64,000 nucleotides of DNA from Nemertoderma westbladi. Lineage: Eukaryota; Animalia; Xenacoelomorpha. This document shows positions 1-43,968 of this stretch, one piece after another (the first letter of the stretch is position 1; each line of letters opens with the position of its first letter). The stretch lies in assembly GCA_032718475.1 (NCBI GenBank), contig JAUCBJ010008526.1, positions 1 through 64,000 of the forward strand, read 5' to 3'. The notes under the pieces were generated by a model. The model made no database searches, was not told where the DNA came from, and saw only the letters and a program-made list of their open reading frames with translations. The translations under genes and the position numbers were made by a program.

Positions 1-2015
1 ACGTAGCGAATGATGAGCCAGGCCAATCAAAGGGCATAAATTATCTTATTGCTCAAATGTGAGGCAGTGGAAAATTCTGTTAGGATTCCATGTCCCAGAT
101 TAGTGTAAGGGCCGGACTGCGTTGAACGATGAGCTGGGCCAATCATAGAGCACGAAGCACTTCATTGCTCAATGGTGAAGCTGTGGAAAATTCTGTTTAG
201 TTTCCATGTGCAATTTCTAGTATAAAAAGGCCGGTTTGCCTTCGGTTATCACCTTATTACGTTATTATCACACCTTATACTTCGTTACCCCTTTTCTCCA
301 CCTTATAGTTTATTCTTGTAAAATTAGTTAATTCGGTTTCTTGTTGAAACTTTATTTGATAAATCCTTTTGTAAAACTGTAAATATACTGCAATTTCCTG
401 ACATGTTTTCTTTTGGTCCGACTTCGGGACAGCCGAACACCAGGGAGATGGCAGCCTAGATCGTTAGGCCGTAAGCAACGCAGGGAAGGGATGTCCACAA
501 CACGCTAGCGCCCACATTGGATTGACCGCGCACCCCCTTTGCCCCTTCGAAATGCTCAACTTGCCATGCAGCGCCCGCTTTGTGAGAAGGTAAGACTTTG
601 TTCGACGCCCTTGCCCGCCGTAAGACCTATAGATCAGGGTAAGCGTGACATCGTACTGGACGCCGCAAATTTAGGATCAAATAATTATATCCAGACACCC
701 CCCCTTTGTCAAGTCCTACGAATCCCTGGGTTAACCTGTACTTCCTACAGGTGCGAACTATTGCCATTCGTCAGTACGCGAGTACACATTAGGTACGGAC
801 AGCATATGTTCCATAATTTAGTGATTCGTAGCACTGACTGTTTGGTACCGGTTCGCTTTGTAGAACGTACATTAGTACCCCCCCCCCCCCCCCCCCCTGT
901 CTGGAGTTAGCTATTTGATCAGGCAAGGAGCATTTCTGCTACCGGCACACTGCTTGGCCTAGGGAGGTTTATTAATATCCTACCGCGCCTTGCCACGTAC
1001 TGATAGGTATTGCTGCTAACTACCGCAGCAACAAAGTTCTAGAATTAAATTAGTATACCAGATCAGCTAACGTACGGTAGCGATTAACCCCTATTCTTAT
1101 CTTACAACCAGAATCTGGTATTAGTGCCGATCACGGGTGTAGTTACTAACACTGTGGTTGCCCATTGGGTTGTGGATAGGAAGGAGAGAGCTTGACGTCA
1201 TTCGTGAGTATAAAGTTCTACAAACGCGACTAGTTTATTTTAGTAGCTAGCGCACGGTATCATTTTAGTCAGAAAATCACTAAAACCTAGTAAAAGGAAT
1301 TACACGAAATTGTTTTATTTGTAACACACCCACACACACACGCCCTAAAACATATCGCCCTTAAAGTTCTACTAACTATAGCGTACTATACATTACGTTA
1401 GGTGGAAATTATCTGTATTTGTAAAATTAGGATCTGATTTAGTTGCGGCAAAATAAGGAGTATTTCACTTTCGTTATTAAACTGTTGTTTGTCTGGACAA
1501 CGGTATTGTTACATTTAGGCTTGACCTTTTAGACTGATTTCGTACAGGGGGATCAGTTATCGTTACATTTAGGTACGACCCCTTTTCGACTGATTTAGGA
1601 CTGTCAGTGTTGTTACGCTAGGTCTGTTAACCCACTAGCTCGTATATAAACCATATAAATCACACCGCGGCAAGTTACTGTATTTAGGACTGTCAGTGAT
1701 AGTTAGGATTCGCTGCGCGGGGATTGTTTTCCCGTGAGTTTGGTCTGTTACTGTAACTGTACATCTGCCTCACCGGTTAGAGGACAGGTATCCTTCTGTC
1801 TAGTACGTAGGCATTCGACCCGCTCACGTACATAGAATAGATACAAGGCTCTGTTCCTCGCCAGTAGTCGTTTGTGTACTATATCTGTTTGTTTAGATAT
1901 CCTGGACTGGGATTTGTTGTCAGATACTGTACAAGCCCGTATACATTACTAGAGTCTCATAGTAAGATACATCGTTACTAGGATCTGGTAAGCGGTATAC
2001 TACTGGACCCTTACA
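1..2015 (+). mobile_element. Probable LTR (3' or solo) of an LTR retrotransposon, left end outside the window
   Basis: Non-coding, with duplicated enhancer-like blocks, CCAAT and TATA boxes near the start and short internal direct repeats (~1505-1700). It ends in ...GGACCCTTACA exactly where the 36-bp satellite begins, matching the TG...CA LTR terminus. No gag/pol ORF is visible, so the class is inferred. Confidence 0.45.
8..227 (+). promoter_or_regulatory. Pol II promoter-like module: two ~116-bp imperfect direct repeats, each with GGCCAATCA and GGAAAATTC, followed by TATAAAA
   Basis: GGCCAATCA at 21-29 and 137-145, TATAAAA at 221-227. The architecture is typical of an LTR U3 region. Confidence 0.45.
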
Positions 2016-5000
2016 CCTAGTGTTAGTAATCTAGGAGAAATATAAGGAACACCTAGTGTTAGTAATCTAGGAGAATTATAAGGAACACCTAGTGTTAGTA
2101 ATCTAGGAGAAATATAAGGGACACCTTGTGTTAGTAATCTAGGATAAATATAAGGAACACCTAGTGTTAGTAATCTAGGAGAAATATAAGGAACACCCAG
2201 TGTTAGTAATCTAGGATAAATATAAGGAACACCTAGTGTTAGTAATCTAGGATAAATATAAGGGACACCTAGTGTTAGTAATCTAGGAGAAATATAAGGG
2301 ACACCTTGTGTTAGTAATCTAGGATAAATATAAGGAACACCTAGTGTTAGTAATCTAGGAGAAATATAAGGAACACCTAGTGTTAGTAATCTAGGAGAAA
2401 TATAAGGAACACCTAGTGTTAGTAATCTAGGAGAAATATAAGGAACACCTAGTGTTAGTAATCTAGGAGAAATATAAGGGACACCTTGTGTTAGTAATCT
2501 AGGATAAATATAAGGAACACCTAGTGTTAGTAATCTAGGAGAAATATAAGGAACACCTAGTGTTAGTAATCTAGGATAAATATAAGGGACACCTAGTGTT
2601 AGTAATCTAGGAGAAATATAAGGGATACCTAGTGTTAGTAATCTAGGAGAAATATAAGGGACACCTTGTGTTAGTAATCTAGGATAAATATAAGGAACAC
2701 CTAGTGTTAGTAATCTAGGAGAAATATAAGGAACACCTAGTGTTAGTAATCTAGGATAAATATAAGGAACACCTAGTGTTAGTAATCTAGGAGAAATATA
2801 AGGAACACCTAGTGTTAGTAATCTAGGATAAATATAAGGAACACCTAGTGTTAGTAATCTAGGAGAAATATAAGGAACACCTAGTGTTAGTAATCTAGGA
2901 GAAATATAAGGAACACCTAGTGTTAGTAATCTAGGAGAAATATATAGAACACTTAATGTTAGTAATCTAGGATAAATATAAGGGACACCTAGTGTTAGTA
3001 ATCTAGGAGAAATATAAGGGATACCTAGTGTTAGTAATCTAGGAGAAATATAAGGAACACCTAGTGTTAGTAATCTAGGATAAATATATTGAACACTTAA
3101 TGTTAGTAATCTAGGATAAATATAAGGGACACCTAGTGTTAGTAATCTAGGAGAAATATAAGGAACACCTAGTGTTAGTAATCTAGGATAAATATATTGA
3201 ACACTTAATGTTAGTAATCTAGGATAAATATAAGGGACACCTCGTGTTAGTAATCTAGGATAAATATAAGGAACACCTAGTGTTAGTAATCTAGGAGAAA
3301 TATAAGGAACACCTAGTGTTAGTAATCTAGGAGAAATATAAGGGATACCTAGTGTTAGTAATCTAGGAGAAATATAAGGAACACCTAGTGTTAGTAATCT
3401 AGGATAAATATATAAAACACTTAATGTTAGTAATCTAGGATAAATATAAGGGACACCTAGTGTTAGTAATCTAGGATAAATATAAGGAATACCTAATGTT
3501 AGTAATCTAGGAGAAATATATAGAACACCTAGTGTTAGTAATCTAGGAGAAATATAAGGGACACCTAGTGTTAATAATCTAGGATAAATATAAGGAACAC
3601 CTAGTGTTAGTAATCTAGGATAAATATAAGGAACACCTAGTGTTAGTAATCTAGGAGAATTATAAGGAACACCTAGTGTTAGTAATCTAGGAGAAATATA
3701 AGGAATACCTAATGTTAGTAATCTAGGAGAAATATAAGGAACACCTAGTGTTAGTAATCTAGGAGAATTATAAGGAACACCTAGTGTTAGTAATCTAGGA
3801 TAAATATAAGGGACACCTAGTGTTAGTAATCTAGGATAAATATATGGAACACTTAGTGTTAGTGATCTAGGATATTATAAGGAACACCTAGTGTTAGTAA
3901 TCTAGGAGAAATATAAGGAATACCTAATGTTAGTAATCTAGGAGAAATATAAGGAACACCTAGTGTTAGTAATCTAGGAGAAATATAAGGGACACCTAGT
4001 GTTAATAATCTAGGATAAATATAAGGAACACCTAGTGTTAGTAATCTAGGATAAATATAAGGAACACCTAGTGTTAGTAATCTAGGAGAATTATAAGGAA
4101 CACCTAGTGTTAGTAATCTAGGAGAAATATAAGGAATACCTAATGTTAGTAATCTAGGAGAAATATAAGGAACACCTAGTGTTAGTAATCTAGGAGAATT
4201 ATAAGGAACACCTAGTGTTAGTAATCTAGGATAAATATAAGGAACACCTAGTGTTAGTAATCTAGGATAAATATAAGGAACACCTAGTGTTAGTAATCTA
4301 GGAGAAATATAAGGAACACCTAGTGTTAGTAATCTAGGAGAAATATAAGGAACACCTAGTGTTAGTAATCTAGGAGAATTATAAGGAACACCTAGTGTTA
4401 GTAATCTAGGATAAATATAAGGAACACCTAGTGTTAGTAATCTAGGAGAATTATAAGGAACACCTAGTGTTAGTAATCTAGGAGAAATATAAGGAATACC
4501 TAATGTTAGTAATCTAGGAGAAATATAAGGAATACCTAATGTTAGTAATCTAGGAGAATTATAAGGAACACCTAGTGTTAGTAATCTAGGAGAAATATAA
4601 GGAATACCTAATGTTAGTAATCTAGGAGAAATATAAGGAACACCTAGTGTTAGTAATCTAGGAGAATTATAAGGAACACCTAGTGTTAGTAATCTAGGAT
4701 AAATATAAGGGACACCTAGTGTTAGTAATCTAGGATAAATATATGGAACACTTAGTGTTAGTGATCTAGGATATTATAAGGAACACCTAGTGTTAGTAAT
4801 CTAGGAGAAATATAAGGAATACCTAATGTTAGTAATCTAGGAGAAATATAAGGAACACCTAGTGTTAGTAATCTAGGAGAAATATAAGGGACACCTAGTG
4901 TTAATAATCTAGGATAAATATAAGGAACACCTAGTGTTAGTAATCTAGGATAAATATAAGGAACACCTAGTGTTAGTAATCTAGGAGAATTATAAGGAAC

Positions 5001-8000
5001 ACCTAGTGTTAGTAATCTAGGAGAAATATAAGGAATACCTAATGTTAGTAATCTAGGAGAAATATAAGGAACACCTAGTGTTAGTAATCTAGGAGAATTA
5101 TAAGGAACACCTAGTGTTAGTAATCTAGGATAAATATAAGGAACACCTAGTGTTAGTAATCTAGGATAAATATAAGGAACACCTAGTGTTAGTAATCTAG
5201 GAGAAATATAAGGAACACCTAGTGTTAGTAATCTAGGAGAAATATAAGGAACACCTAGTGTTAGTAATCTAGGAGAATTATAAGGAACACCTAGTGTTAG
5301 TAATCTAGGATAAATATAAGGAACACCTAGTGTTAGTAATCTAGGAGAATTATAAGGAACACCTAGTGTTAGTAATCTAGGAGAAATATAAGGAATACCT
5401 AATGTTAGTAATCTAGGAGAAATATAAGGAATACCTAATGTTAGTAATCTAGGAGAAATATAAGGAATACCTAATGTTAGTAATCTAGGATAAATATAAG
5501 GAACACCTAGTGTTAGTAATCTAGGAGAATTATAAGGAACACCTAGTGTTAGTAATCTAGGAGAAATATAAGGAATACCTAATGTTAGTAATCTAGGAGA
5601 AATATAAGGAACACCTAGTGTTAGTAATCTAGGAGAATTATAAGGAACACCTAGTGTTAGTAATCTAGGAGAAATATAAGGAATACCTAATGTTAGTAAT
5701 CTAGGAGAAATATAAGGAATACCTAATGTTAGTAATCTAGGAGAAATATAAGGAACACCTAGTGTTAGTAATCTAGGATAAATATAAGGAATACCTAATG
5801 TTAGTAATCTAGGAGAAATATATAGAACACCTAGTGTTAGTAATCTAGGAGAAATATAAGGGACACCTAGTGTTAATAATCTAGGATAAATATATAGAAC
5901 ACTTAATGTTAGTAATCTAGGATAAATATAAGGGACACCTAGTGTTAGTAATCTAGGATAAATATAAGGGACACCTAGTGTTAGTAATCTAGGATAAATA
6001 TAAGGAATACCTAATGTTAGTAATCTAGGAGAAATATATAGAACACCTAGTGTTAGTAATCTAGGAGAAATATAAGGAACACCTAGTGTTAGTAATCTAG
6101 GATAAATATAAGGAACACCTAGTGTTAGTAATCTAGGAGAATTATAAGGAACACCTAGTGTTAGTAATCTAGGAGAAATATAAGGAATACCTAATGTTAG
6201 TAATCTAGGAGAAATATAAGGAACACCTAGTGTTAGTAATCTAGGAGAAATATAAGGAACACCTAGTGTTAGTAATCTAGGAGAATTATATGAACACCTA
6301 GTGTTAGTAATCTAGGATAAATATAAGGAACACCTAGTGTTAGTAATCTAGGAGAATTATAAGGAACACCTAGTGTTAGTAATCTAGGAGAAATATAAGG
6401 AATACCTAATGTTAGTAATCTAGGAGAATTATAAGGAACACCTAGTGTTAGTAATCTAGGATAAATATAAGGAACACCTAGTGTTAGTAATCTAGGAGAA
6501 ATATAAGGAACACCTAGTGTTAGTAATCTAGGAGAAATATAAGGAACACCTAGTGTTAGTAATCTAGGAGAAATATAAGGAACACCTAGTGTTAGTAATC
6601 TAGGATAAATATATTGAACACTTAATGTTAGTAATCTAGGATAAATATAAGGGACACCTTGTGTTAGTAATCTAGGAGAAATATAAGGAACACCTAGTGT
6701 TAGTAATCTAGGATAAATATAAGGGACACCTTGTGTTAGTAATCTAGGAGAAATATAAGGAACACCTAGTGTTAGTAATCTAGGATAAATATATAGAACA
6801 CTTAATGTTAGTAATCTAGGATAAATATAAGGGACACCTAGTGTTAGTAATCTAGGATAAATATAAGGGACACCTTGTGTTAGTAATCTAGGAGAAATAT
6901 AAGGAACACCTAGTGTTAGTAATCTAGGATAAATATATAGAACACTTAATGTTAGTAATCTAGGATAAATATAAGGGACACCTAGTGTTAGTAATCTAGG
7001 ATAAATATAAGGAATACCTAATGTTAGTAATCTAGGAGAAATATATAGAACACCTAGTGTTAGTAATCTAGGAGAAATATAAGGGACACCTAGTGTTAAT
7101 AATCTAGGATAAATATAAGGAACACCTAGTGTTAGTAATCTAGGATAAATATAAGGAACACCTAGTGTTAGTAATCTAGGAGAATTATAAGGAACACCTA
7201 GTGTTAGTAATCTAGGAGAAATATAAGGAATACCTAATGTTAGTAATCTAGGAGAAATATAAGGAACACCTAGTGTTAGTAATCTAGGAGAATTATAAGG
7301 AACACCTAGTGTTAGTAATCTAGGAGAAATATAAGGAACACCTAGTGTTAGTAATCTAGGAGAAATATAAGGGATACCTAGTGTTAGTAATCTAGGAGAA
7401 ATATAAGGAACACCTAGTGTTAGTAATCTAGGATAAATATATAGAACACTTAATGTTAGTAATCTAGGATAAATATAAGGGACACCTCGTGTTAGTAATC
7501 TAGGAGAAATATAAGGAACACCTAGTGTTAGTAATCTAGGATAAATATAAGGAACACCTAGTGTTAGTAATCTAGGATAAATATAAGGAATACCTAATGT
7601 TAGTAATCTAGGAGAAATATATAGAACACCTAGTGTTAGTAATCTAGGATAAATATAAGGAACACCAAGTGTTAGTAATCTAGGATAAATATAAGGAATA
7701 CCTAATGTTAGTAATCTAGGAGAAATATATAGAACACCTAGTGTTAGTAATCTAGGAGAAATATAAGGGATACCTAGTGTTAGTAATCTAGGAGAATTAT
7801 AAGGAACACCTAGTGTTAGTAATCTAGGATAAATATATGGGACACCTAGTGTTAGTAATCTAGGATAAATATAAGGAACACCTAGTGTTAGTAATCTAGG
7901 ATAAATATAAGGAACACCTAGTGTTAGTAATCTAGGATAAATATATTGAACACTTAATGTTAGTAATCTAGGATAAATATAAGGGATACCTAGTGTTAGT

Positions 8001-11000
8001 AATCTAGGAGAAATATAAGGAACACCTAGTGTTAGTAATCTAGGAGAAATATAAGGAACACCTAGTGTTAGTAATCTAGGAGAAATATAAGGAACACCTA
8101 GTGTTAGTAATCTAGGAGAAATATAAGGAACACCTAGTGTTAGTAATCTAGGAGAAATATAAGGAACACCTAGTGTTAGTAATCTAGGATAAATATATAG
8201 AACACTTAATGTTAGTAATCTAGGATAAATATAAGGGACACCTAGTGTTAGTAATCTAGGAGAAATATAAGGAACACCCAGTGTTAGTAATCTAGGATAA
8301 ATATAAGGAACACCTAGTGTTAGTAATCTAGGATAAATATATTGAACACTTAATGTTAGTAATCTAGGATAAATATAAGGGACACCTAGTGTTAGTAATC
8401 TAGGATAAATATAAGGAACACCTAGTGTTAGTAATCTAGGATAAATATAAGGAATACCTAGTGTTAGTAATCTAGGATAAATATATAGAACACTTAATGT
8501 TAGTAATCTAGGATAAATATAAGGGACACCTAGTGTTAGTAATCTAGGAGAAATATAAGGGACACCTAGTGTTAGTAATCTAGGATAAATATAAGGAACA
8601 CCAAGTGTTAGTAATCTAGGAGAAATATAAGGAACACCTAGTGTTAGTAATCTAGGAGAAATATAAGGAACACCTAGTGTTAGTAATCTAGGAGAAATAT
8701 AAGGAATACCTAATGTTAGTAATCTAGGAGAAATATATAGAACACTTAATGTTAGTAATCTAGGATAAATATAAGGGACACCTAGTGTTAGTAATCTAGG
8801 ATAAATATAAGGAACACCTAGTGTTAGTAATCTAGGAGAAATATAAGGAACACCAAGTGTTAGTAATCTAGGAGAAATATAAGGGACACCTAGTGTTAGT
8901 AATCTAGGAGAAATATAAGGGACACCTAGTGTTAATAATCTAGGATAAATATAAGGAACACCTAGTGTTAGTAATCTAGGATAAATATAAGGAACACCTA
9001 GTGTTAGTAATCTAGGAGAAATATAAGGGACACCTAGTGTTAGTAATCTAGGAGAAATATAAGGGACACCTAGTGTTAATAATCTAGGATAAATATAAGG
9101 AACACCTAGTGTTAGTAATCTAGGATAAATATAAGGAACACCTAGTGTTAGTAATCTAGGAGAATTATAAGGAACACCTAGTGTTAGTAATCTAGGAGAA
9201 ATATAAGGAATACCTAATGTTAGTAATCTAGGAGAAATATAAGGAACACCTAGTGTTAGTAATCTAGGAGAATTATAAGGAACACCTAGTGTTAGTAATC
9301 TAGGATAAATATAAGGAACACCTAGTGTTAGTAATCTAGGAGAAATATAAGGAACACCTAGTGTTAGTAATCTAGGAGAAATATATAGAACACTTAATGT
9401 TAGTAATCTAGGAGAAATATAAGTAACACCTAGTGTTAGTAATCTAGGAGAAATATAAGGAACACCTAGTGTTAGTAATCTAGGATAAATATAAGGAACA
9501 CTTAGTGTTAGTAATCTAGGATAAATATAAGGGACACCTAGTGTTAGTAATCTAGGATAAATATAAGGAACACCTAGTGTTAGTAATCTAGGAGAAATAT
9601 AAGGAACACCAAGTGTTAGTAATCTAGGAGAAATATAAGGGGCACCTCTAGGATTAATATAAGGAACACCTAGTGTTAGTAATCTAGGAGAAATATAAGG
9701 GACACCTAGTGTTAGTAATCTAGGAGAAATATAAGGGACACCTAGTGTTAATAATCTAGGATAAATATAAGGAACACCTAGTGTTAGTAATCTAGGATAA
9801 ATATAAGGAACACCTAGTGTTAGTAATCTAGGAGAAATATAAGGGACACCTAGTGTTAGTAATCTAGGAGAAATATAAGGGACACCTAGTGTTAATAATC
9901 TAGGATAAATATAAGGAACACCTAGTGTTAGTAATCTAGGATAAATATAAGGAACACCTAGTGTTAGTAATCTAGGAGAATTATAAGGAACACCTAGTGT
10001 TAGTAATCTAGGAGAAATATAAGGAATACCTAATGTTAGTAATCTAGGAGAAATATAAGGAACACCTAGTGTTAGTAATCTAGGAGAATTATAAGGAACA
10101 CCTAGTGTTAGTAATCTAGGATAAATATAAGGAACACCTAGTGTTAGTAATCTAGGAGAAATATAAGGAACACCTAGTGTTAGTAATCTAGGAGAAATAT
10201 AAGGAACACCTAGTGTTAGTAATCTAGGAGAAATATAAGGGATACCTAGTGTTAGTAATCTAGGAGAAATATAAGGAACACCTAGTGTTAGTAATCTAGG
10301 AGAAATATAAGGAACACCTAGTGTTAGTAATCTAGGATAAATATAAGGAACACTTAGTGTTAGTAATCTAGGATAAATATAAGGGACACCTAGTGTTAGT
10401 AATCTAGGATAAATATAAGGAACACCTAGTGTTAGTAATCTAGGAGAAATATAAGGAACACCAAGTGTTAGTAATCTAGGAGAAATATAAGGGGCACCTC
10501 TAGGATTAATATAAGGAACACCTAGTGTTAGTAATCTAGGAGAAATATAAGGGACACCTAGTGTTAGTAATCTAGGAGAAATATAAGGGACACCTAGTGT
10601 TAATAATCTAGGATAAATATAAGGAACACCTAGTGTTAGTAATCTAGGATAAATATAAGGAACACCTAGTGTTAGTAATCTAGGAGAAATATAAGGGACA
10701 CCTAGTGTTAGTAATCTAGGAGAAATATAAGGGACACCTAGTGTTAATAATCTAGGATAAATATAAGGAACACCTAGTGTTAGTAATCTAGGATAAATAT
10801 AAGGAACACCTAGTGTTAGTAATCTAGGATAAATATAAGGAACACCTAGTGTTAGTAATCTAGGAGAAATATAAGGAACACCTAGTGTTAGTAATCTAGG
10901 AGAAATATAAGGAACACCTAGTGTTAGTAATCTAGGAGAAATATAAGGGATACCTAGTGTTAGTAATCTAGGAGAAATATAAGGAACACCTAGTGTTAGT

Positions 11001-26000: not shown

Positions 26001-28274
26001 TATAAGGGACACCTTGTGTTAGTAATCTAGGATAAATATAAGGAACACCTAGTGTTAGTAATCTAGGAGAAATATAAGGAACACCCAGTGTTAGTAACCT
26101 AGGAGAAATGTGAGGAACACCTAGTGTTAGTAATCTAGGAGAAATATAAGGGACACCTTGTGTTAGTAATCTAGGATAAATATAAGGAACACCTAGTGTT
26201 AGTAATCTAGGAGAAATATAAGGAACACTTAGTGTTAGTAATTTAGGAGAAATATAAGGAACACTTAGTGTTAGTAATTTAGGAGAATTATAAGGAACAC
26301 CTAGTGTTAGTAATCTAGGAGAAATATAAGGAACACCTAGTGTTAGTAATCTAGGAGAAATATAAGGAACACCTAGTGTTAGTAATCTAGGAGAAATATA
26401 AGGGACACCTTGTGTTAGTAATCTAGGATAAATATAAGGAACACCTAGTGTTAGTAATCTAGGAGAAATATAAGGAACACTTAGTGTTAGTAATTTAGGA
26501 GAAATATAAGGAACACCTAGTGTTAGTAATCTAGGATAAATATAAGGAACACCTAGTGTTAGTAATCTAGGATAAATATATAGAACACCTAGTGTTAGTA
26601 ATCTAGGATAAATATAAGGAACACCTAGTGTTAGTAATCTAGGAGAAATATAAGTAACACCTAGTGTTAGTAATCTAGGATATATATAAGGAACACCTAG
26701 TGTTAGTAATCTAGGATAAATATAAGGAACACCTAGTGTTAGTAATCTAGGAGAAATATATAGAACACCTAGTGTTATTAATCTAGGATAAATATATTGA
26801 ACACTTAATGTTAGTGATCTAGGAGAAATATAAGGAACACCTAGTGTTAGTAATCTAGGATAAATATAAGGAACACCTAGTGTTAGTAATCTAGGATAAA
26901 TATAAGTAACACCTAGTGTTAGTAATCTAGGATATATATAAGGAACACCTAGTGTTAGTAATCTAGGATAAATATAAGGAACACCTAGTGTTAGTAATCT
27001 AGGAGAAATATATAGAACACCTAGTGTTATTAATCTAGGATAAATATATTGAACACTTAATGTTAGTGATCTAGGAGAAATATAAGGGACACCTAGTGTT
27101 AGTAATCTAGGAGAAATATAAGGAACACTTAGTGTTAGTAATCTAGGAGAAATATAAGGAACACCTAGTGTTAGTAGTCTAGGAGAAATATAAGGGACAC
27201 CTAGTGTTAGTAATCTAGGAGAATTATAAGGAACACCTAGTGTTAGTAGTCTAGGAGAAATATAAGGGACACCTAGTGTTAGTAATCTAGGAGAAATATA
27301 AGGGACACCTAGTGTTAGTAATCTAGGATAAATATAAGGAACACCAAGTGTTAGTAATCTAGGAGAAATATAAGGAACACCTAGTGTTAGTAATCTAGGA
27401 GAATTATAAGGAACACCTAGTGTTAGTAATCTAGGATAAATATAAGGAACACCTAGTGTTAGTAATCTAGGAGAAATATAAGGAACACCTAGTGTTAGTA
27501 ATCTAGGAGAAATATAAGGGACACCTTGTGTTAGTAATCTAGGATAAATATAAGGAACACCTAGTGTTAGTAATCTAGGAGAAATATAAGGAACACCCAG
27601 TGTTAGTAACCTAGGAGAAATGTGAGGAACACCTAGTGTTAGTAATCTAGGAGAAATATAAGGGACACCTTGTGTTAGTAATCTAGGATAAATATAAGGA
27701 ACACCTAGTGTTAGTAATCTAGGAGAAATATAAGGAACACTTAGTGTTAGTAATTTAGGAGAATTATAAGGAACACCTAGTGTTAGTAATCTAGGAGAAA
27801 TATAAGGAACACCTAGTGTTAGTAATCTAGGAGAATTATAAGGAACACCTAGTGTTAGTAATCTAGGAGAAATATAAGGAACACCAAGAGTTAGTAATCT
27901 AGGAGAAATATAAGGAACACCTAGTGTTAGTAATCTAGGAGAATTATAAGGAACACCTAGTGTTAGTAATCTAGGATAAATATAAGGAACACCTAGTGTT
28001 AGTAATCTAGGAGAAATATAAGGAACACCTAGTGTTAGTAATCTAGGAGAAATATAAGTAACACCTAGTGTTAGTAATCTAGGATATATATAAGGGACAC
28101 CTAGTGTTAGTAATCTAGGATAAATATAAGGAACACCCAGTGTTAGTAACCTAGGAGAAATGTGAGGACACTTAGTGTTAGTAATTTAGGAGAAATATTT
28201 AGAACACCTAGTGTTAGTAATCTAGGAGAAATATAAGGAACACCTAGTGTTAGTGATCTAGGAGAAATATAAGG
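2013..28274. repeat. 36-bp satellite array, ~730 units, consensus ACACCTAGTGTTAGTAATCTAGGAGAAATATAAGGA
   Basis: Directly visible head-to-tail repeat with recurring variant units and higher-order periods of 899, 852/708, 984, 972 and 4872 bp. Confidence 0.99.
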
Positions 28275-28309
28275 CCCACTTTTACCCCGAGTATAATACC
28301 ACACAGTAC

Positions 28310-28426
28310 CATACATACATACATACATACATACATACATACATACATACATACATACATACATACATACATACATACATACATACATACATACATACAT
28401 ACATACATACATACATTCATACATAC
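28310..28426. repeat. (CATA)n microsatellite in the isomerase-gene intron
   Basis: About 29 near-perfect tetranucleotide units. Confidence 0.98.
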
Positions 28427-28485
28427 CGTTAGATTCATTTATTATTCTAGAATAATTATACAATAATATCGACAGGTTGGTTTAC

Positions 28486-28736: not shown

Positions 28737-29805
28737 ATCCGAAATATCTAAGAGTGAATAACGTTCAGGTATCTCTACATTGTAAATATAATTAAATAAT
28801 ATTACCCCAGGTTTCCTAACCTAATAACGGCGTGTTGCGTCAATAAGTTTTTGCACAACTTAATTATTTAGCATAAAAGTATGAGATGCCTCATTAAGGC
28901 TGAGGATTAAGGCCGAATGAGGCCCATTATTTGAGTAACATTTCTGCTTGAAGCATATCACTATTAGTATGACAACTATATATTTTTTAACAAAGATACG
29001 CCCCCAAGCGGGGCGAATAGTTTAATCAAGGAAACTAATAATAATAATTAATATTTATTCGGCGTCTTTTACGTTCAAAGGCGCAATGCGTTTGTTAAAA
29101 AAGCAATACACACTCCATCACTCAAATATAACAGACCAAATCAAAACAATAAGTTTAACAATACTGGCCGGAAGTAGCAGAACATATAACGTGGGGAAAG
29201 GGAAGATGACTTGGTTAGGGCAGGGCAAGCTAGTAGGTGGACCAATCAGTCCACTTACAGTGAGCCAGGGGCCAACAAAGCCCTAGCGAATGGCCTGGAC
29301 GCATGGCGTGATCTGTAGGACGACCAATGGGGGGTGGGGCATGTATGTATCAACCCATAGGCCGCCATTGGTGCGTTGACCTAATGGAAGCATAATATTG
29401 ATTGAGATTGTCCATACATTAATACATACATTCAATAATCACAGTTTAGTGGTTGGTATCCGTTCTTTTCCATTTATACTGAAGAACACAATTTAAAATT
29501 ACCGGTTTTAAATTAGAAAATACACCTGGGAAATTTAAGGTAAAAAGGTGTTGGTAAAAAATTACTTGCCATACTATATTAAGTAACTTTTGAGGTGACT
29601 TAAAATATTAAACAACTAAAGTATTACAAAATGCTACAGTATGTATGAAAAATATTTAATATAAAACAACATAATTAATCAGTATAATAATTGACCATAA
29701 TTAGGTGTGAAACCCAGTGAGGTAATTTTAACATGTGGAAATAATTATAAACACTCGTTGCCATTGTATACCACTGTAACCAGGTAAATACTGTTTGTGT
29801 TGCAG

Positions 29806-30005
29806 AGGTTTTTCATTGGGTCGGCCAGACAATTGAACCGAATAGAAGCGGTGTCTAGGAGTCCCATTTACAGTCACTTCCAGGAGACCCTTCAAGGGAC
29901 GTCTATTATTCGCGCCTTCAAATCCACAGAAACATTCAGTATGCAGACCCGCAAGTTAATTGATGGCAATATTGATTGTATTTACCCGTATCAGACAATA
30001 AACAG
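29806..30005 (+). CDS. ABCC/MRP1-like ABC transporter, internal exon (TMD2)
   Basis: TTGCAG| acceptor and |GTGAG donor, 200 bp. RFFIGSARQLNRIEAVSRSPIYSHFQETLQG matches the MRP RQLKRLESVSRSPVYSHF motif. Confidence 0.95.
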
Positions 30006-30049
30006 GTGAGTATTCGTAGTCACTCATATCAGACAGCAAACTGGTGAAG

Positions 30050-30368
30050 TAAAGTGAAAAAATATTTTCTTCGGCCGTTATAGGCCAGGGATTAAGCACA
30101 AAGTCTTATGACGGGGGGGGGGGGGGGGTAGTAGGAGTGGGGGTGTTATAACCCCCTTAATAACAGTGCTGACCCCCAGAACAATTAATACTCCCAAGAT
30201 CAAACTGGTACGCATTCAGCTAATATTTATGAAGAAAGGCAGATTGTCCCTTGAAAGCTTTCGTGTCAAAATGAAAACTACCCTGGCCCCTATGCGGGGA
30301 TCGAACCTACGACCTCCGCAAAGTTGTGAATTCAAGGCGATGGATTTAAGCACTACGCCAAGGAGGGC
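30050..30368 (-). mobile_element. tRNA-derived SINE
   Basis: Minus-strand head (30368-30284) GCCCTCCTTGGCGTAGTG...GGTTCGATCCCCGCATAGGGGCCA has A and B boxes but mismatched stems, followed by a non-tRNA body. The 3' boundary is approximate. Confidence 0.65.
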
Positions 30369-31382
30369 TGTCCAAGATTTGGAAGTCACACAGAATACGT
30401 CGGAAACTTAAGGTCCGATTATTTAGAGCAGCAGTTGTTTATGTTATCCTCTATGCGAGTCCATGCTTGGCTCTAACTGCTGAGGACACCAAATCTCTAG
30501 ATTATAACTTCAGGGATAATGACTGTAGAAAGGGTCTAATGCCACGGTTAACAAAAACAGTTTCTACATATTTATATGGCCATTTCATCCTCGCCTCACG
30601 GACGTCTTCAGTAAATAAATTAAAATAACATTAAAACACAATTTATAAACCTAAACCATCATATTAAATTGAACGTACGGTACAACCAATTATTATGCCA
30701 CCAAATTCCGATATAGACAGTATGATAGGATGTATTAGATTAACATATTTAGATACTGTATAATACTGTATGTAGGCCTAGAGATAGAATTGTAGGCTAC
30801 ATGTGTTGTTAAGGTATTAGTCGTTCAACTGTTAAAAATTTAAAAATAAAAAATAAAAATAAAAATAAAAAGGGTGCTAAATGAAGAGGTGTAAAAAGGG
30901 TGGGTAACGTTAAAACCATTAAATGATTAAAAATTGTTAAAAAATTTTGGTTCCAATATTAAGTCGTTGAATTAGAAATTTATAAATAAAAGTGAGGCTG
31001 GTAAAAGGGTAAAAAAATTCTAAAAAAATGTTGGTTCTGAAATAAAAAATCATTAAAAAATATATTTAAAAGAAGGGAAAGAATACCTAAGCCATGAGCT
31101 GCATAAAATTGAGGGGGATAAAAGGACACATATTACTGTTACTAAATAAAAGGAATCCCTACAAGATTACATGTTACAATTTTTAAAAAAGTAGCTGTAA
31201 TAATTACGAAGCAACATGCGTCCAGCAATTTCGTAACCACCAGCGTCGTATTCATACTGAAGCATTACTCATTAATTGCCACCGCCCACCCCTCAATAAA
31301 CTGGTACCACTTCTATAGAATGAAACTTCGACCCGATGGCTCGCCCCCACCTAACATTTGGATGTAACAAACTCACACCACC

Positions 31383-31436
31383 CATGGAATACTAAATATA
31401 CATGTATATATATATATGTATATTTAGTATTCCATG
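31383..31436. mobile_element. 54-bp palindromic mini-element (CATGGAATACTAAATATACAT...ATGTATATTTAGTATTCCATG) with a 7-bp TSD
   Basis: 21-bp perfect TIRs around a short TA run. CACCACC is duplicated at 31376-31382 and 31437-31443. Confidence 0.7.
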
Positions 31437-31989
31437 CACCACCTCTAATAATTAATTAACTGTGCAGTACGCTCTACTTGCTGTAATATACATTGTGTCA
31501 GCTAACTGTAATGTACGTACTATAGCCGAACCGAACATATTAGTATTCCGCAATAATTTTTATTGTCCGTTTAAATCCTTTTTTTGTCCTTTTTTTTTTA
31601 TTTTTTATGTCCTCCAAAAGTCTAATGTTAGGTTCCATGCTACCGGTTTCTCTACTGCTGTTCTCTCAGGCTATCAGTACCGGTATTAGTATATATAGCA
31701 CTATTTTGCTGTATTGTATGTACAGATGTAGGTATAAAGCAGGTATTTCTGTATTTTAGTACCGGTACCTGCACCGGTACTGCTATAGGCCTACTATGTA
31801 GCCTACCATTTAAATACGGTAATGGTAGGCCTACCGGTTGTGCTAATAAATTTTAAATGATTGATAGGCCAAACTGGATTGCAGGATTGTGGAAAATGTG
31901 GATATACCTTTCACATAATTTAGGCCTATTACTGTATTAGTTTTATAATCAATAATGGATCATGACTACTGTCTGAGTAGTGTTACGGA

Positions 31990-33170
31990 TAACCTGCTCC
32001 TTTCCCTGATTTGGTAAAGTGACTGTTTATTGTTTTGGTTAGAAAATCCGGACTTAACCTGCTCCTTTCCCTCAATTAGTTAAGTGATCGTTTATTGTTT
32101 TTGTTAGAAAATCCCGCCTCTGTAACCTGCTCCTTTCCCTCAATTGGTAATGTTATCGTTTATTGTTTTGGTTAGAAAATCCCGCCTCTGTAACCTGCCC
32201 CTTTCCCTCAATTAGTTAAATGATCGTTTATTGTTTTGGTTAGAAAATCCCGCCTCTGTAACCTGCTCCTTTCCCTCAATTAGTTAAGTGATCGTTTATT
32301 GTTTTGGTTAGAAAATTCCGCCTCTGTAACCTGTCCCTTTCCCTCAATTAGTTAAATGATCGTTTATTGTTTTGGTTAGAAAATCCCGCCTCTGTAACCT
32401 GCTCCTTTCCCTCAATAAGTTAAGTGATCGTGTATTGTTTTGGTTAGAAAATCCCGCCTCTGTAACCTGCTCCTTTCCCTCAATTAGTTAAGTGATCGTT
32501 TATTGTTTTGGTTAGAAAATCCGGACTTAACCTGCTCCTTTCCCTCAATTAGTTAAGTGATCGTTTATTGTTTTGGTTAGAAAATCCCGCCTCTGTAACC
32601 TGCTCCTTTCCCTCAATTGGTAATGTTATCGTTTATTGTTTTGGTTAGAAAATCCCGTCTCTGTAACCTGCTCCTTTCCCTCAATTAGTTAAATGATCGT
32701 TTATTGTTTTGGTTAGAAAATCCCGCCTCTGTAACCTGCCCCTTTCCCTCAATTAATTAAATGATCGTTTATTGTTTTGGTTAGAAAATCCCGCCTCTGT
32801 AACCTGCTCCTTTCCCTCAATTAGTTAAGTGATCGTTTATTGTTTTGGTTAGAAAATTCCGCCTCTGTAACCTGTCCCTTTCCCTCAATTAGTTAAATGA
32901 TCGTTTATTGTTTTGGTTAGAAAATCCCGCCTCTGTAACCTGCTCCTTTCCCTCAATAAGTTAAGTGATCGTGTATTGTTTTGGTTAGAAAATCCCGCCT
33001 CTGTAACCTGCTCCTTTCCCTCAATTAGTTAAGTGATCGTTTATTGTTTTGGTTAGAAAATCCCGTCTCTGTAACCTGCTCCTTTCCCTGATTTGGTAAA
33101 GTGACTGTTTATTGTTTTGGTTAGAAAACTTGGCCTTAACCTGCTCCTTTCCATCAATTGGTAATTGTTT
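31990..33170. repeat. 68-bp tandem repeat, ~17 units, inside the foldback element
   Basis: Unit TAACCTGCTCCTTTCCCTCAATTAGTTAAGTGATCGTTTATTGTTTTGGTTAGAAAATCCCGCCTCTG. A 65-bp variant recurs at 473-bp spacing (7-mer duplication). Confidence 0.97.
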
Positions 33171-34300
33171 TTGGCTATAAAATGAGTGTTTTGCTACGTC
33201 ATGTGGTAATCAATTATCGACAACAACCACAAAATATTAAATATAGAGTCTTTTTACCACAGGCGCATATGGAAATCTATCTCATAGTCTATAAATCATG
33301 GAATCATGGAATGTTTTGGCACAGGCATAGTGAAATCAACTGTCTGACAGTCCAGAAATCAGCAGTCTGACAGTTTGAAGAAATACATACATAAAAAGTC
33401 ATTAAAAGGACAATAAAAGTCATTAAAAGGACAACAAAAATCACTGCCTTAGTATTCAATAGGAAATACCAAAACAAAAACTTTTTTAAAAATTGTAACA
33501 TGTAATCTTATAGGGATTCCTTTTATTTAGTAACAGTAATATGTGTCCTTTTATCCCCCTCAATTTTATGCAGCTCATGGCTTAGGTATTCTTTCCCTTC
33601 TTTTAAATATATTTTTTAATGATTTTTTATTTCAGAACCAACATTTTTTATAATTTTTTTACCCTTTTACCAGCCTCACTTTTATTTATAAATTTCTAAT
33701 TCAACGACTTAATATTGGAACCAAAATTTTTTAACAATTTTTAATCATTTAATGGTTTTAACGTTACCCACCCTTTTTACACCTCTTCATTTAGCACCCT
33801 TTTTATTTTTATTTTTATTTTTTATTTTTAAATTTTTAACAGTTGAACGACTAATACCTTAACAACACATGTAGCCTACAATTCTATCTCTAGGCCTACA
33901 TACAGTATTATACAGTATCTAAATATGTTAATCTAATACATCCTATCATACTGTCTATATCGGAATTTGGTGGCATAATAATTGGTTGTACCGTACGTTC
34001 AATTTAATATGATGGTTTAGGTTTATAAATTGTGTTTTAATGTTATTTTAATTTATTTACTGAAGACGTCCGTGAGGCGAGGATGAAATGGCCATATAAA
34101 TATGTAGAAACTGTTTTTGTTAACCGTGGCATTAGACCCTTTCTACAGTCATTATCCCTGAAGTTATAATTATGGATACGCCACGAACGGCATCATTTCG
34201 ACTACTTTCCCATTTAATTATAAATCTCTAGATGGCACATTCACAAGAATGCTACGTCGGGTTCATTGTGTCAAGTACAATGCACACATCTCCAATCAGA

Positions 34301-35126
34301 ATCTGTATGATGTCGTTATTCAATAATGCCGATGTAAATTTGAGAGGATTGTGGATCTCAACAATACTAGTCACCGGATATTGGATTAGGGAGTGATGGA
34401 TAATGCATTCGATAAGGAAAAAGAACAAGTTGGGTTGAATCATAACATTTTTAATTCTAACTGATCGAGTTCTCTTGCGCTGATACACACTGATTCCAAA
34501 TATGGGACTCCCCAATACGCCAATATAAATAGAATATACACAATAATAATAAATGGGTTTTTTATAATAAGCCTATTATAGTACAAAATTATTTAGTCAG
34601 TCAGAATTTATTTAGATTTTAACCCACCAGAACTACGTTTGATACCCATCTGTCTGGTCAGTCTGTGTCCGTCATAAGTCGGTCATTAGGCCGTCGAAAA
34701 TCCATCAGTAGTCCGTCGGGTCTATCCCTCGTTTTGCCTAGTGTCACCCTAGGTCGAATCCTTTTCAAGCTCACCCTAGGCTCGGCTTGGGGTCCCCGCG
34801 TCTTTGTGACGCCTAGTGTCACCCTAGCCCGAATCCTTTTCAGGCTCGTGCTAGGCTGGCCGGCGCCACTCAGGCATTTGTCCCTTGGCAACCAGGAACT
34901 CTATCTGGAGTCAGATTGTACTTGAATTCTGGGAATTTGGGCCCCATTAAAAGCACTGAGTGGCGATTTTGTGTTTAGTCGTTATTAAAAATCGTCGTAA
35001 CTTTGTTAATTTTAACGGTTTTTTAACCGGTTTTTTGCACGCGGTGTCCTGGCCTTTTCGGAATATTCGATTATTGGAGTTTATAATTTTTATATATGCC
35101 CGGCACCGTAATTAAAAATAACGTGA
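34301..35126. other. Unclassified ~825-bp insertion interrupting the RTE fragment
   Basis: RTE homology stops at 34300 and resumes at 35127. The GC-richer core has GCCTAGTGTCACCCTAG twice and an inverted GCCACTCAG/CTGAGTGGC pair. No clear TSD or TIR. Confidence 0.6.
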
Positions 35127-35577
35127 ACACTATACAACATTGGAGGTGTTCCATTAGACTCCCCTAGCTTGACATTCTTGAACAGAACCGTCTCCGCTTT
35201 GTAGGACATTGCTTTCGCCATGAGGACTAGCCAGTGCATAATCTTGTGCTTTGGCGGCCTCATGGAGTGAATAAGCATGGTGGACAGCCCATGTCTTTCT
35301 TGCACCTTAAAGGTCACAGGCCTTGTTATGTAAATAAGCTGGCATGCATTCTTAATGTCCCGCTGTGGATTGCATGGTGGTGGCAAAATTATGGACGACC
35401 CCCTATTGCGTTGGTATTTATTTTAGTATTACAACTAATTTTAAAAATCGTAAATTGTATATAATATATATATTATATATATTATATTATGTATAATTTT
35501 GACATTATTTGCATTATATTTACAATTTTTGACATTTTTACATGATTTCACACTAAATCATTCTTTCCTATCCGTAG

Positions 35578-35704
35578 ATGGCTGTCATACCGTATTGAAT
35601 TCATTGGGAATCTCATCATTGTTGCTTCTGCCTTATTCGCTGTGGCTTCCAAAGAATCTCTGGGTCCTGCATTAGTTGGTCTATCCGTTCAGTTCGCAAT
35701 GAGT
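35578..35704 (+). CDS. ABCC/MRP1-like transporter exon (last TM helices); not in the ORF track
   Basis: CCGTAG| ... |GTGAGT, 127 bp, phase matches the previous exon. Translates (R)WLSYRIEFIGNLIIVASALFAVASKESLGPALVGLSVQFAMS. Confidence 0.95.
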
Positions 35705-35847
35705 GTGAGTGTCTGTATTACTCTGAGTCCAGCATTAATACAAACATAAAAACAAACAATTATTAGTAACAAAGTGACAACCACGATTATCAATCGGTGA
35801 CCTCCGGGTTGTAAGTTATTTAATTAATTTAGTTAATTTATTTTTAG

Positions 35848-36102
35848 ATCACTCAATCATTGGGTTTCATGGTTCGAATGTTCTCAGAAATGGAGGCGAA
35901 TATCGTAGCCGTAGAGCGAATCAAAGAGTACGGGGAGTTGGAGGCGGAAGCTGATTGGTCCTCCCCCGGGACGGATTCCCAGCTGGCAGCTGATTGGCCG
36001 AACTATGGACGTATTGAAATGAAAGATTTGTGTGTCCGTTACAGGGACGGGATGGAATTAGCGTTGAAAAACATTACCCTAACGGTTGAACCGGGAGAGA
36101 AG
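35848..36102 (+). CDS. ABCC/MRP1-like transporter exon (TMD2-NBD2 linker)
   Basis: TTTTAG| ... AAG|GTTAGT, 255 bp. ITQSLGFMVRMFSEMEANIVAVERIKEY...WPNYGRIEMKDLCVRYRDGMELALKNITLTVEPGEK. Confidence 0.96.
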
Positions 36103-39053
36103 GTTAGTTAATCTAATGGTTGAACTGGGAGAGAAGGTTAGTTAATCTAACGGTTGAACCGGGAGAGAAGGTTTTGTTAATCTAATGGTTGAACCGGGAG
36201 AGAAGGTTAGTTAATCTAATGGTTGAACTGGGAGAGAAGGTTAGTTAATCTAACGGTTGAACGGGAGAGAAGGTTAGTTAATCTAACGGTTGAACGGGAG
36301 AGAAGGTTAGTTAATCTAATGGTTGAACTGAGAGAGAAGGTTAGTTAATCTAACGGTTGAACGGGAGAGAAGGTTAGTTAATCTAACGGTTGAACCGGGA
36401 GAGAAGGTTAGTTAATCTAACGGTTGAACCGGGAGAGAAGGTTAGTTAATCTAATGGTTGAACTGGGAGAGAAGGATAGTTAATCTAACGGTTGAACTGG
36501 GGGAGAAGGTTAGTTAATCTAACGGTTGAACTGGGAGAGAAGGTTAGTTAATCTAACGGTTGAACGGGAGAGAAGGTTAGTTAATCTAACGGTTGAACGG
36601 GAGAGAAGGTTAGTTAATCTAACGGTTGAACTGGGAGAGAAGGTTAGTTAATCTAACGGTTGAATGGGAGAGAAGGTTAGTTAATCTAACGGTTGAACGG
36701 GAGAGAAGGTTAGTTAATCTAACGGTTGAACTGGGAGAGAAGGTTAGTTAATCTAACGGTTGAACTGGGGGAGAAGGTTAGTTAATCTAACGGTTGAACG
36801 GGAGAGAAGGTTAGTTAATCTAACGGTTGAACCGGGAGAGAAGGTTAGTTAATCTAATGGTTGAACTGGGAGAGAAGGATAGTTAATCTAACGGTTGAAC
36901 TGGGGGAGAAGGTTAGTTAATCTAACGGTTGAACTGGGAGATAAGGTTAGTTAATCTAACGGTTGAACGGGAGAGAAGGTTAGTTAATCTAACGGTTGAA
37001 CCGGGAGAGAAGGTTAGTTAATCTAATGGTTGAACTGGGAGAGAAGGATAGTTAATCTAACGGTTGAACTGGGGGAGAAGGTTAGTTAATCTAACGGTTG
37101 AACTGGGAGATAAGGTTAGTTAATCTAACGGTTGAACGGGAGAGAAGGTTAGTTAATCTAACGGTTAAACCGGGAGAGAAGGTTAGTTAATCTAATGGTT
37201 GAACCGGGAGAGAAGGTTAGTTAATCTAATGGTTGAACTGGGAGAGAAGGATAGTTAATCTAACGGTTGAACTGGGGGAGAAGGTTAGTTAATCTAACGG
37301 TTGAACCGAGAGAGAAGGTTAGTTAATCTAACGGTTGAACGGGAGAGAAGGTTAGTTAATCTAACGGTTGAACCGGGAGAGAAGGTTAGTTAATCTAACG
37401 GTTGAACCGGGAGAGAAGGTTAGTTAATCTAATGGTTGAACTGGGAGAGAAGGATAGTTAATCTAACGGTTGAACTGGGGGAGAAGGTTAGTTAATCTAA
37501 CGGTTGAACCGAGAGAGAAGGTTAGTTAATCTAACGGTTGAACGGGAGAGAAGGTTAGTTAATCTAACGGTTGAACCGGGAGAGAAGGTTAGTTAATCTA
37601 ACGGTTGAACCGGGAGAGAAGGTTAGTTAATCTAATGGTTGAACTGGGAGAGAAGGATAGTTAATCTAACGGTTGAACTGGGGGAGAAGGTTAGTTAATC
37701 TAACGGTTGAACCGAGAGAGAAGGTTAGTTAATCTAACGGTTGAACGGGAGAGAAGGTTAGTTAATCTAACGGTTGAACCGGGAGAGAAGGTTAGTTAAT
37801 TTAACGGTTGAACTGGGAGAGAAGGTTAGTTAATCTAATGGTTGAACTGGGAGAGAAGGTTAGTTAATCTAACGGTTGAACCGAGAGAGAAGGTTAGTTA
37901 ATCTAACGGTTGAACGGGAGAGAAGGTTAGTTAATCTAACGGTTGAACCGGGAGAGAAGGTTAGTTAATCTAACGGTTGAACTGGGAGAGAAGGTTAGTT
38001 AATCTAACGGTTGAACCGAGAGAGAAGGTTAGTTAATCTAACGGTTGAACGGGAGAGAAGGTTAGTTAATCTAACGGTTGAACCGGGAGAGAAGGTTAGT
38101 TAATCTAACGGTTGAACTGGGAGAGAAGGTTAGTTAATCTAACGGTTGAACCGAGAGAGAAGGTTAGTTAATCTAACGGTTGAACGGGAGAGAAGGTTAG
38201 TTAATCTAACGGTTGAACCGGGAGAGAAGGTTAGTTAATCTAATGGTTGAACTGGGAGATAAGGTTAGTTAATCTAACGGTTGAACTGGGAGAGAAGGTT
38301 AGTTAATCTAATGGTTGAACTGGGGGAGAAGGTTAGTTAATCTAACGGTTGAACCGAGAGAGAAGGTTAGTTAATCTAACGGTTGAACGGGAGAGAAGGT
38401 TAGTTAATCTAACGGTTGAACCGGGAGAGAAGGTTAGTTAATCTAACGGTTGAACTGGGAGAGAAGGTTAGTTAATCTAACGGTTGAACCGAGAGAGAAG
38501 GTTAGTTAATCTAACGGTTGAACGGGAGAGAAGGTTAGTTAATCTAACGGTTGAACCGGGAGAGAAGGTTAGTTAATCTAATGGTTGAACTGGGAGAGAA
38601 GGATAGTTAATCTTATGGTTGAACTGGGAGAGAAGGTTAGTTAATCTAACGGTTGAACTGGGGGAGAAGGTTAGTTAATCTAACGGTTGAACTGGGAGAG
38701 AAGGTTAGTTAATCTAACGGTTGAACTGGGAGAGAAGGATAGTTAATCTAACGGTTGAACCGGGAGAGAAGGTTAGTTAATCTAACGGTTGAACCGGGAG
38801 AGAAGGTTAGTTAATCTAACGGTTGAACGGGAGAGAAGGTTAGTTAATCTAACGGTTGAACTGGGAGAGAAGGATAGTTAATCTAACGGTTGAACTGGAG
38901 GAGAAGGTTAGTTAATCTAACGGTTGAACTGGGAGAGAAGGATAGTTAATCTAACGGTTGAACCGGGAGAGAAGGTTAGTTAATCTAATGGTTGAACTGA
39001 GAGAGAAGGTTAGTTAATCTAACGGTTGAACCGGGAGAGAAGGTTAGTTAATC
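36079..39053 (+). repeat. 34-bp tandem array, ~88 units, CTAACGGTTGAACCGGGAGAGAAG|GTTAGTTAAT; the first unit overlaps the ABCC exon end and donor
   Basis: Directly visible. Unit 1 is exon nt 36079-36102 plus intron nt 36103-36112. Confidence 0.99.
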
Positions 39054-39410: not shown

Positions 39411-39413
39411 TAG

Positions 39414-39782
<369 letters not shown>

Positions 39783-40492: not shown

Positions 40493-40960
<468 letters not shown>

Positions 40961-43944: not shown

Positions 43945-43968
43945 GTCGAGCGAACTCAAAAATGGATG

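What the first reader, a model, noticed from the sequence alone, without database searches (positions are those of the whole stretch)
2013..39053. Two neighbouring genes both have splice-junction-derived arrays that share a motif: a possible general junction-amplification process
Seen: two independent arrays of similar unit size (36 and 34 bp) each straddle an exon boundary (22 exon + 14 intron nt; 24 exon + 10 intron nt), one at an acceptor and one at a donor. In gene sense both contain an exon-derived CTAAC and an AG|GT. On the + strand they share GTTAGT(T)AATCTA, although they come from unrelated genes on opposite strands. Inference: two cases within 40 kb suggest either a mechanism that seeds tandem amplification at splice junctions or at this motif, or a survivorship effect in which junction-straddling duplications are tolerated because one intact exon edge remains. 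I do not know of this being described as a genome-wide system, but I could not search the literature.
Basis: partly seen in the sequence, partly recalled or inferred. Interest (0 to 1): 0.8.

Follow-up and report, generated by a model that had tools for sequence, protein, structure and literature searches.

The report
Two large splice-site "mirage" minisatellites
In an animal genome, a short stretch spanning an exon edge has been copied head-to-tail 88 times in one gene and about 730 times in an overlapping gene; this kind of repeat is already known from lancelets and humans, is likely harmless to splicing, and the motif the two share is likely chance.

Summary
Both arrays are real and both units are copies of splice junctions. 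The 34-bp array (36079-39053, 88 units) repeats a donor of an ABCC/MRP transporter gene (24 exon + 10 intron nt). The 36-bp array (2013-28274, about 732 units) repeats an acceptor plus 22 nt of the next exon of an enoyl-CoA hydratase/isomerase gene. A spliced contig from a public run matches that exon part at 19 of 22 letters, once only. The real exon is not in the window: the array ends against unrelated sequence. The shared motif is weak: P 0.01-0.03 for this pair, 0.22 for any of 10 pairs. It is absent from the pre-duplication donor locus, and CTAAC also occurs in a non-junction array. Such repeats are known as lancelet 'mirages' and human F7/CBS-type VNTRs, and this scan noted them before in five other genomes. 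Two of 14 junctions carry arrays (chance P 0.01-0.03, in a window picked for this). Genome-wide enrichment could not be tested because no genome is held. What stands out is size: 26 kb with about 680 complete decoy acceptors.

The parts
2013..28274 (-). 36-bp minisatellite, about 732 units. Unit = last 14 nt of an intron (ending TAG) + first 22 nt of the next exon of an ECH/ECI-family gene (R-L-L-T-L-G-V-P). 3-nt microhomology (CCT) at the unit joint.
   Evidence: exon identity
28486..28774 (-). Exon of an enoyl-CoA hydratase/isomerase-family gene; donor at 28486/28485 (phase 2)
   Evidence: run X4 contig lies on exactly 28486-28774; homologues carry Pfam ECH_1; PDB EchA3 E=0.006
28275..28485 (-). 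Unique 5' part of the ECH intron (211 nt, holds a (CATA)29 microsatellite) between the donor and the first decoy acceptor at 28257
1..2015 (.). Unrelated sequence abutting the exon-side end of the 36-bp array. LTR-like by recalled hallmarks only (ends ACA, TATA box at 221, CCAAT at 23 and 139 in an 86-bp direct repeat, TGG-start tract at 414); not verified as an element.
   Evidence: no copy found
36079..39053 (+). 34-bp minisatellite, 88 units. Unit = last 24 nt of an ABCC exon + first 10 nt of the intron. 77 of 88 keep GTTAGT, 1 has GTTTTG, 10 have lost the GT.
35848..36102 (+). ABCC/MRP exon whose donor (36102) is the first unit of the 34-bp array
39414..39739 (+). Next ABCC exon (Walker A, I-G-I-V-G-R-T-G), in frame with the first donor
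29806..46917 (+). 3' part of the ABCC1/2-like gene: exons 29806-30005, 35578-35704, 35848-36102, 39414-39739, 40738-40932, 46767-46917
   Evidence: splice 30005 to 35578 seen in run X4

Best explanation
These are two independent splice-junction minisatellites ('mirages'): each unit is a copy of an exon edge, likely started by an ordinary short tandem duplication, likely enlarged by unequal exchange, and likely tolerated because splicing uses only the site next to the real exon. Shown: unit anatomy at both junctions; 3-nt and 1-nt microhomology at the unit joints; long repeated blocks of unit variants in the 36-bp array; one spliced contig that carries the exon start once; a stop 6 nt past the real ABCC donor, so any later donor would truncate the protein. 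Inferred: the duplication and expansion mechanisms; use of the first ABCC donor in mRNA; that the real ECH exon lies left of the window beyond an inserted element; that the region is simply prone to minisatellites (70.6% of the window is in five arrays, three not at junctions). The shared motif is likely chance plus splice-site consensus.
For: Units and flanks. ABCC frame and homology. Run X4 contig stops at the ECH donor and continues with one copy of the exon start, then P-T-V-A; family pattern. Block structure (56 consecutive units identical at lag 137, 48 at lag 118, a 25-unit block in perfect tandem). Variants in the exon-derived part include 12 amino-acid-changing and 10 silent alleles, so the array is not held as coding sequence. 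Motif nulls P=0.014 (mononucleotide), 0.033 (dinucleotide), 0.020 (splice signals fixed), 0.22 (any of 10 pairs); 0.025 with random real segments. Precedents: PMC3087553, PMC3902484, PMC1557585.
Against: Two of 14 junctions carry arrays where about 0.15 are expected (P 0.008-0.03), so pure chance is not comfortable. Given that one array prompted the look, a second has P 0.13-0.23. The pairwise motif P of 0.01-0.03 is nominally below 0.05. The 36-bp array is not contiguous with its real exon in the window. It differs from the expressed exon at 3 letters, all silent (chance about 0.04), which neutral drift of the array does not predict well. X4 is another sample and may lack the array. No RNA was laid on the ABCC donor.
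Confidence: 0.75

Rival explanations
1. Junction-biased seeding: something about splice junctions (composition step, R-loops, recombination or repair sites, or a splicing-linked event) makes tandem duplications start there more often than elsewhere in this genome, without any shared motif.
For: 2 of 14 junctions against 1.1-1.9% of collapsed sequence, P 0.010-0.030. Lancelets show several such loci and the authors call the mechanism unclear. Survivorship alone explains tolerance but cannot raise junction arrays above the intronic rate (my inference).
Against: The window was chosen for this pattern; at P 0.008 about 2000 of 250,000 windows of like make-up would show it. Three of five large arrays and 12 of 14 junctions do not fit. 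No genome was available.
Confidence: 0.25
2. Motif-seeded amplification: GTTAGT(T)AATCTA or CTAAC is a target of an enzyme or element that amplifies it.
For: 12-letter gapped match, pairwise P 0.014-0.033; both copies face the same way on the ABCC pre-mRNA strand.
Against: The motif is absent from the reconstructed single-copy donor locus and from 18.8 kb of unique window sequence. The expressed ECH exon differs inside it. P is 0.22 over 10 array pairs. One shared 5-mer in gene sense is below the null mean of 1.5. CTAAC is also in the non-junction 68-bp array.
Confidence: 0.05
3. The ECH gene is broken on this haplotype: the last unit at 2013 was the real exon start, and the LTR-like sequence inserted 15-18 nt into it, so the array belongs to a null allele or a detached copy.
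For: The array ends in mid-exon against unrelated sequence with no unit decay at that end, while the first five units at the other end are singletons. Three silent differences from the transcript suggest the unit descends from a sequence that was under coding constraint.
Against: An insertion into one of more than 730 units would rarely hit the last. The upstream exon matches the transcript at 288 of 289 letters, so three differences in 22 nt are not allelic-level and the real exon likely lies elsewhere. Lack of end decay is also seen at both natural ends of the 34-bp array.
Confidence: 0.15
4. The 36-bp array is translated or spliced in as a 12-residue repeat, since it is in frame and free of stops.
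For: 0 of 717 full-length units have an in-frame stop; 681 of 717 carry TACTAAC 29 nt before a terminal TAG; a 2017-codon open frame exists.
Against: The X4 contig shows a single exon start. 15 of 732 units are not 36 nt long, 11 of them (35, 19 or 29 nt) of lengths that shift the frame, and amino-acid-changing variants are common. An open frame follows from a 36-nt unit without stops.
Confidence: 0.05

Closest known systems
Amphioxus 'mirage' minisatellites (globins BflGb6/BflGb9, Adh3, troponin C, PGBD5). PMC3087553: passages and section 16 read. PMC3902484: one passage read. The original Adh3 paper (PMC117041) is not held and is known to me only through these.
   Same: Head-to-tail copies of an intron/exon boundary, at acceptors and at donors, several loci in one genome, units of 10-160 bp, normal splicing apparently kept, end units excluded from homogenisation.
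   Different: Far more units (88 and about 732 against 3-6 for BflGb6). The 36-bp array is separated from its real exon in the window and differs from it at 3 letters. The organism is not identified.
Human donor-reiterating VNTRs: F7 IVS7 (37 bp, 5-9 units), 6-16 intron 2 (25 pseudo-sites), CBS IVS13 (15-20), lamin B2, PDGF. PMC1557585: abstract and nine passages read.
   Same: The first unit spans the exon-intron boundary and the donor is reiterated in the intron; the most upstream donor is used, in some genes also the next one or two. The 34-bp ABCC array has this anatomy.
   Different: More exon than intron in the unit (24+10 against 4+33 in F7), 88 units, and donor use not measured here.
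Internal tandem repeats at exon-intron boundaries in human segmental duplications. PMC2812944: twelve passages read.
   Same: Minisatellites of about 30 bp at exon-intron boundaries counted as a class (162 alignments before curation, 27 intron modifications).
   Different: Those average 4 units and concern new introns; the passages read give no test of enrichment at junctions.
ABCA7 intron 18 VNTR. PMC6660495 (review): twelve passages read.
   Same: Intronic VNTR of up to more than 10 kb in an ABC-transporter gene whose length affects splicing of flanking exons.
   Different: The passages read do not say that its unit copies a splice site; its size is below the 26 kb here.

Membership tests
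Mirage / junction-spanning VNTR | Head-to-tail tandem array with a minisatellite-size unit | tested here: met
   36 bp x 730 and 34 bp x 88
Mirage / junction-spanning VNTR | Unit holds both exonic and intronic sequence of a real junction | tested here: met
   34-bp. 36-bp: exon part matches a spliced contig at 19 of 22 letters and the family pattern; its intronic 14 nt end in TAG and continue into the unique intron.
Mirage / junction-spanning VNTR | Terminal unit is the authentic splice site, contiguous with the real exon (34-bp array) | tested here: met
   First unit ends the exon in frame with the next exon
Mirage / junction-spanning VNTR | Terminal unit is the authentic splice site, contiguous with the real exon (36-bp array) | tested here: inconclusive
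   Array ends at 2013 against unrelated sequence; real exon not in the window; no genome held
Mirage / junction-spanning VNTR | Normal mRNA is made despite the pseudo-sites | tested here: inconclusive
   One contig of another sample shows the normal ECH join; contigs drop rare forms and that sample's array is unknown; ABCC donor not covered
Mirage / junction-spanning VNTR | Length polymorphism or somatic instability | not testable with these tools
   Only short-read contigs were available; they break in arrays
Genome-wide junction-biased amplification | Array seeds overlap exon boundaries more than shuffled positions across the genome | not testable with these tools
   No genome held; window-level P 0.01-0.03 is post hoc
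LTR retrotransposon (left flank) | Paired LTRs, target-site duplication, gag/pol frames, other copies | tested here: inconclusive
   Only recalled hallmarks seen; no second copy, long frame or Rfam hit

The most novel reading that the evidence does not exclude
This animal seeds tandem amplification at splice junctions well above the intronic rate and lets such arrays grow to tens of kilobases. It then splices accurately past about 680 complete branch-point-plus-AG decoys that begin 228 nt after the donor, which would make it a natural large-scale test of exon definition against scanning in 3' splice-site choice and point to a link between splicing and DNA duplication.
Probability: 0.2. Interest if true: 0.65.

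Novelty: new member of a known kind. Interest (0 to 1): 0.3.

Why it matters
The kind is known and likely neutral. These two cases extend it in scale: 88 and about 732 units against 3-25 in the papers read. The 36-bp array presents hundreds of full decoy acceptors with a TACTAAC branch-point match (name of the motif recalled), so it is a strong natural test of how the spliceosome picks a 3' splice site. If a genome-wide count showed enrichment at junctions, it would bear on the open question of how mirages arise and on intron gain by tandem duplication. Such arrays can also break assemblies and gene models.

Tried and rejected
Whole-genome test: no genome is held. The motif as a seed: rejected. 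A 14-16 nt micro-exon reading of the array's left end (GT follows the last unit): rejected, because the spliced contig continues as P-T-V-A and the unit joint then has a clean 3-nt microhomology. First homologue search with the ECH exon found nothing, and Pfam gave no hit on that exon alone; the full-library search found 13 proteins, of which 11 were read: 10 look like ECH proteins and P0121 is a repetitive artefact; P0125 and P0132 were not read. No RNA holder was listed, but X4 covers exons only and joins them, so I treat it as spliced RNA. Metagenome scan for the left-flank terminus: 0. Rfam: 0. The bacterial promoter scan does not apply to an animal. Papers PMC117041 and PMC1783408 are not held. 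Seven literature searches showed no genome-wide test of junction enrichment in their listings; subscription papers and supplements were not seen, so this is not proof of absence. PMC6905558 (passages) was not relevant. The organism could not be placed beyond 'animal': ABCC hits were 54-78% identical across molluscs, arthropods and vertebrates.

Full report
Setting. The window is animal DNA. Five large minisatellites fill 70.6% of it: 36 bp x 730 (2013-28274), 68 bp x 17 (31990-33159), 34 bp x 88 (36079-39053), 19 bp x 441 (47826-56191) and 53 bp x 121 (56984-63397).

The 34-bp array. The + strand carries the 3' part of an ABCC/MRP transporter gene. Six exons with AG/GT at every intron give one open frame of 418 codons, colinear with four MRP1/2 homologues. 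The exon 35848-36102 ends in E-P-G-E-K and the next begins I-G-I-V-G-R-T-G; 98 of 120 homologues matched a Walker-A pattern at this place, and the 25 commonest contexts shown have a single I or V between K (or R) and G. The unit is the last 24 nt of that exon plus 10 nt of intron. Of 88 units, 77 keep GTTAGT, 1 has GTTTTG and 10 have lost the GT. First and last units are the same variant. A stop lies 6 nt past the real donor, so any later donor would truncate the protein. Use of the first donor is inferred; no RNA was laid here.

The 36-bp array. The minus strand has an exon of an enoyl-CoA hydratase/isomerase-family gene. A 1128-nt contig of run X4 lies on exactly 28486-28774 with one difference and leaves at the donor. 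X4 is listed as 'DNA?', but it covers exons only and joins ABCC 30005 to 35578, so I treat it as spliced RNA. Its next 30 letters match the exon part of the unit at 19 of 22 places and then read P-T-V-A, which fits the family pattern in 8 of 8 aligned homologues. The three differences are all silent third positions (chance about 0.04). The array has 732 complete units of 62 types; 709 of 717 full-length units end in AG, 681 also carry TACTAAC 29 nt upstream, and none has an in-frame stop. Long blocks of variants recur (56 units at lag 137, 48 at lag 118), as unequal exchange would give. The real exon is not in the window. The last unit stops 15-18 nt into the exon part and abuts unrelated sequence with LTR-like hallmarks that I know from recall and could not verify.

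Gene arrangement. Neither the ABCC exon before 29806 nor the ECH exon before 28774 is in the window. If the assembly is right, the two genes are interleaved on opposite strands: the 36-bp array lies in an ABCC intron of at least 29.8 kb, and the six ABCC exons lie in an ECH intron of at least 35 kb.

The motif. The + strand match is 12 letters with one gap. Shuffled units reach it with P 0.014 (mononucleotide), 0.033 (dinucleotide) and 0.020 (splice signals fixed); over the 10 pairs of the five arrays P is 0.22. Random real segments give 0.025. In the 34-bp array the motif spans the unit joint and is absent from the single-copy locus. In the ECH transcript one of its letters differs. Three of five ABCC donors begin GTTA. 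In gene sense the units share one 5-mer, CTAAC, against a null mean of 1.5, and CTAAC/GTTAG is also in the 68-bp array. The two units lie in opposite senses relative to their genes. I reject the motif as a seed.

Enrichment at junctions. Of 14 junctions, 2 are amplified and 12 are single-copy. With arrays collapsed to one unit (19.0 kb), 0.15 are expected and P(2 or more) is 0.008-0.010, or 0.03 with small arrays in the background. Given that one array prompted the look, a second has P 0.13-0.23. The 68-bp and 53-bp arrays sit inside inverted-repeat elements, and the 19-bp array is at no junction I could find. This is a hint, not a result. Survivorship explains why such arrays are tolerated but cannot by itself enrich them over introns (my inference).

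What is known. Tandem copies of exon-intron boundaries are described in lancelets as 'mirages', at both boundary types and several loci, without disturbing splicing and with unclear origin (PMC3087553, section 16 and passages; PMC3902484, one passage). Human F7, 6-16, CBS, lamin B2 and PDGF have donor-reiterating VNTRs, and in F7 only the most upstream donor is used (PMC1557585, abstract and passages). Boundary repeats are counted as a class in PMC2812944 (passages). The original Adh3 paper could not be read. Seven searches listed no genome-wide enrichment test; subscription papers and supplements were not seen. Earlier notes of this scan report the same kind in five other genomes. They are unchecked and came after I had reached this reading.

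Verdict. Two new members of a known kind. The 34-bp array meets the structural tests. The 36-bp array works like an acceptor mirage, but its contact with the real exon is unresolved. Its size and its roughly 680 decoy acceptors are the unusual part. Interest 0.3.

Noticed in passing
window 1-46917: ABCC (+) and ECH/ECI (-) genes appear interleaved antisense: each gene's neighbouring exon lies outside the window, beyond the other gene's exons.
   Followed up: partly
window 1-2015: LTR-like stretch that cuts the 36-bp array: ends ACA, TATA box at 221, two CCAAT boxes in an 86-bp direct repeat, TGG-start tract at 414, poly-C at 878; no copy found.
   Followed up: partly
window 30501-34170: Foldback-like element with 692-bp arms 99.6% identical, enclosing the 68-bp array and high-copy sequence; it appears to interrupt a LINE fragment (30366-30502 and 34221-34308 match consecutive parts of the LINE at 43412-43623).
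   Followed up: partly
window 41788-43698: 636-codon open frame with a reverse transcriptase domain (PF00078, E=4e-28) in the last ABCC intron; a LINE-type element with further fragments at 35127-35325.
   Followed up: no
window 56663-63506: The 53-bp array (121 units, 98% matches) lies between inverted arms of about 170 bp, 78% alike.
   Followed up: no
window 47826-56191: 19-bp array of 441 units with strong G skew (about 0.7), no source identified.
   Followed up: no
window 47145-47199: Solitary reverse copy (80%) of the 68-bp unit 230 bp past the ABCC stop, so that unit comes from a dispersed repeat.
   Followed up: no
window 39054-39413: C-rich 360-bp end of the intron after the 34-bp array, with a two-copy 50-bp repeat ending 4 nt before the acceptor; it does not include the junction.
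   Followed up: partly
window 41105-41162 and 46663-46720: 58-bp inverted pair, 95% complementary, near the two ends of the last ABCC intron.
   Followed up: no
window 28741: All three covering runs (X1, X2, X4) read A where the window has G: a private allele or a base error in the window.
   Followed up: no
window 2013-28274: The array consensus has TACTAAC where the expressed exon differs by one letter, so the amplified unit carries a better branch-point match than the real exon start.
   Followed up: partly
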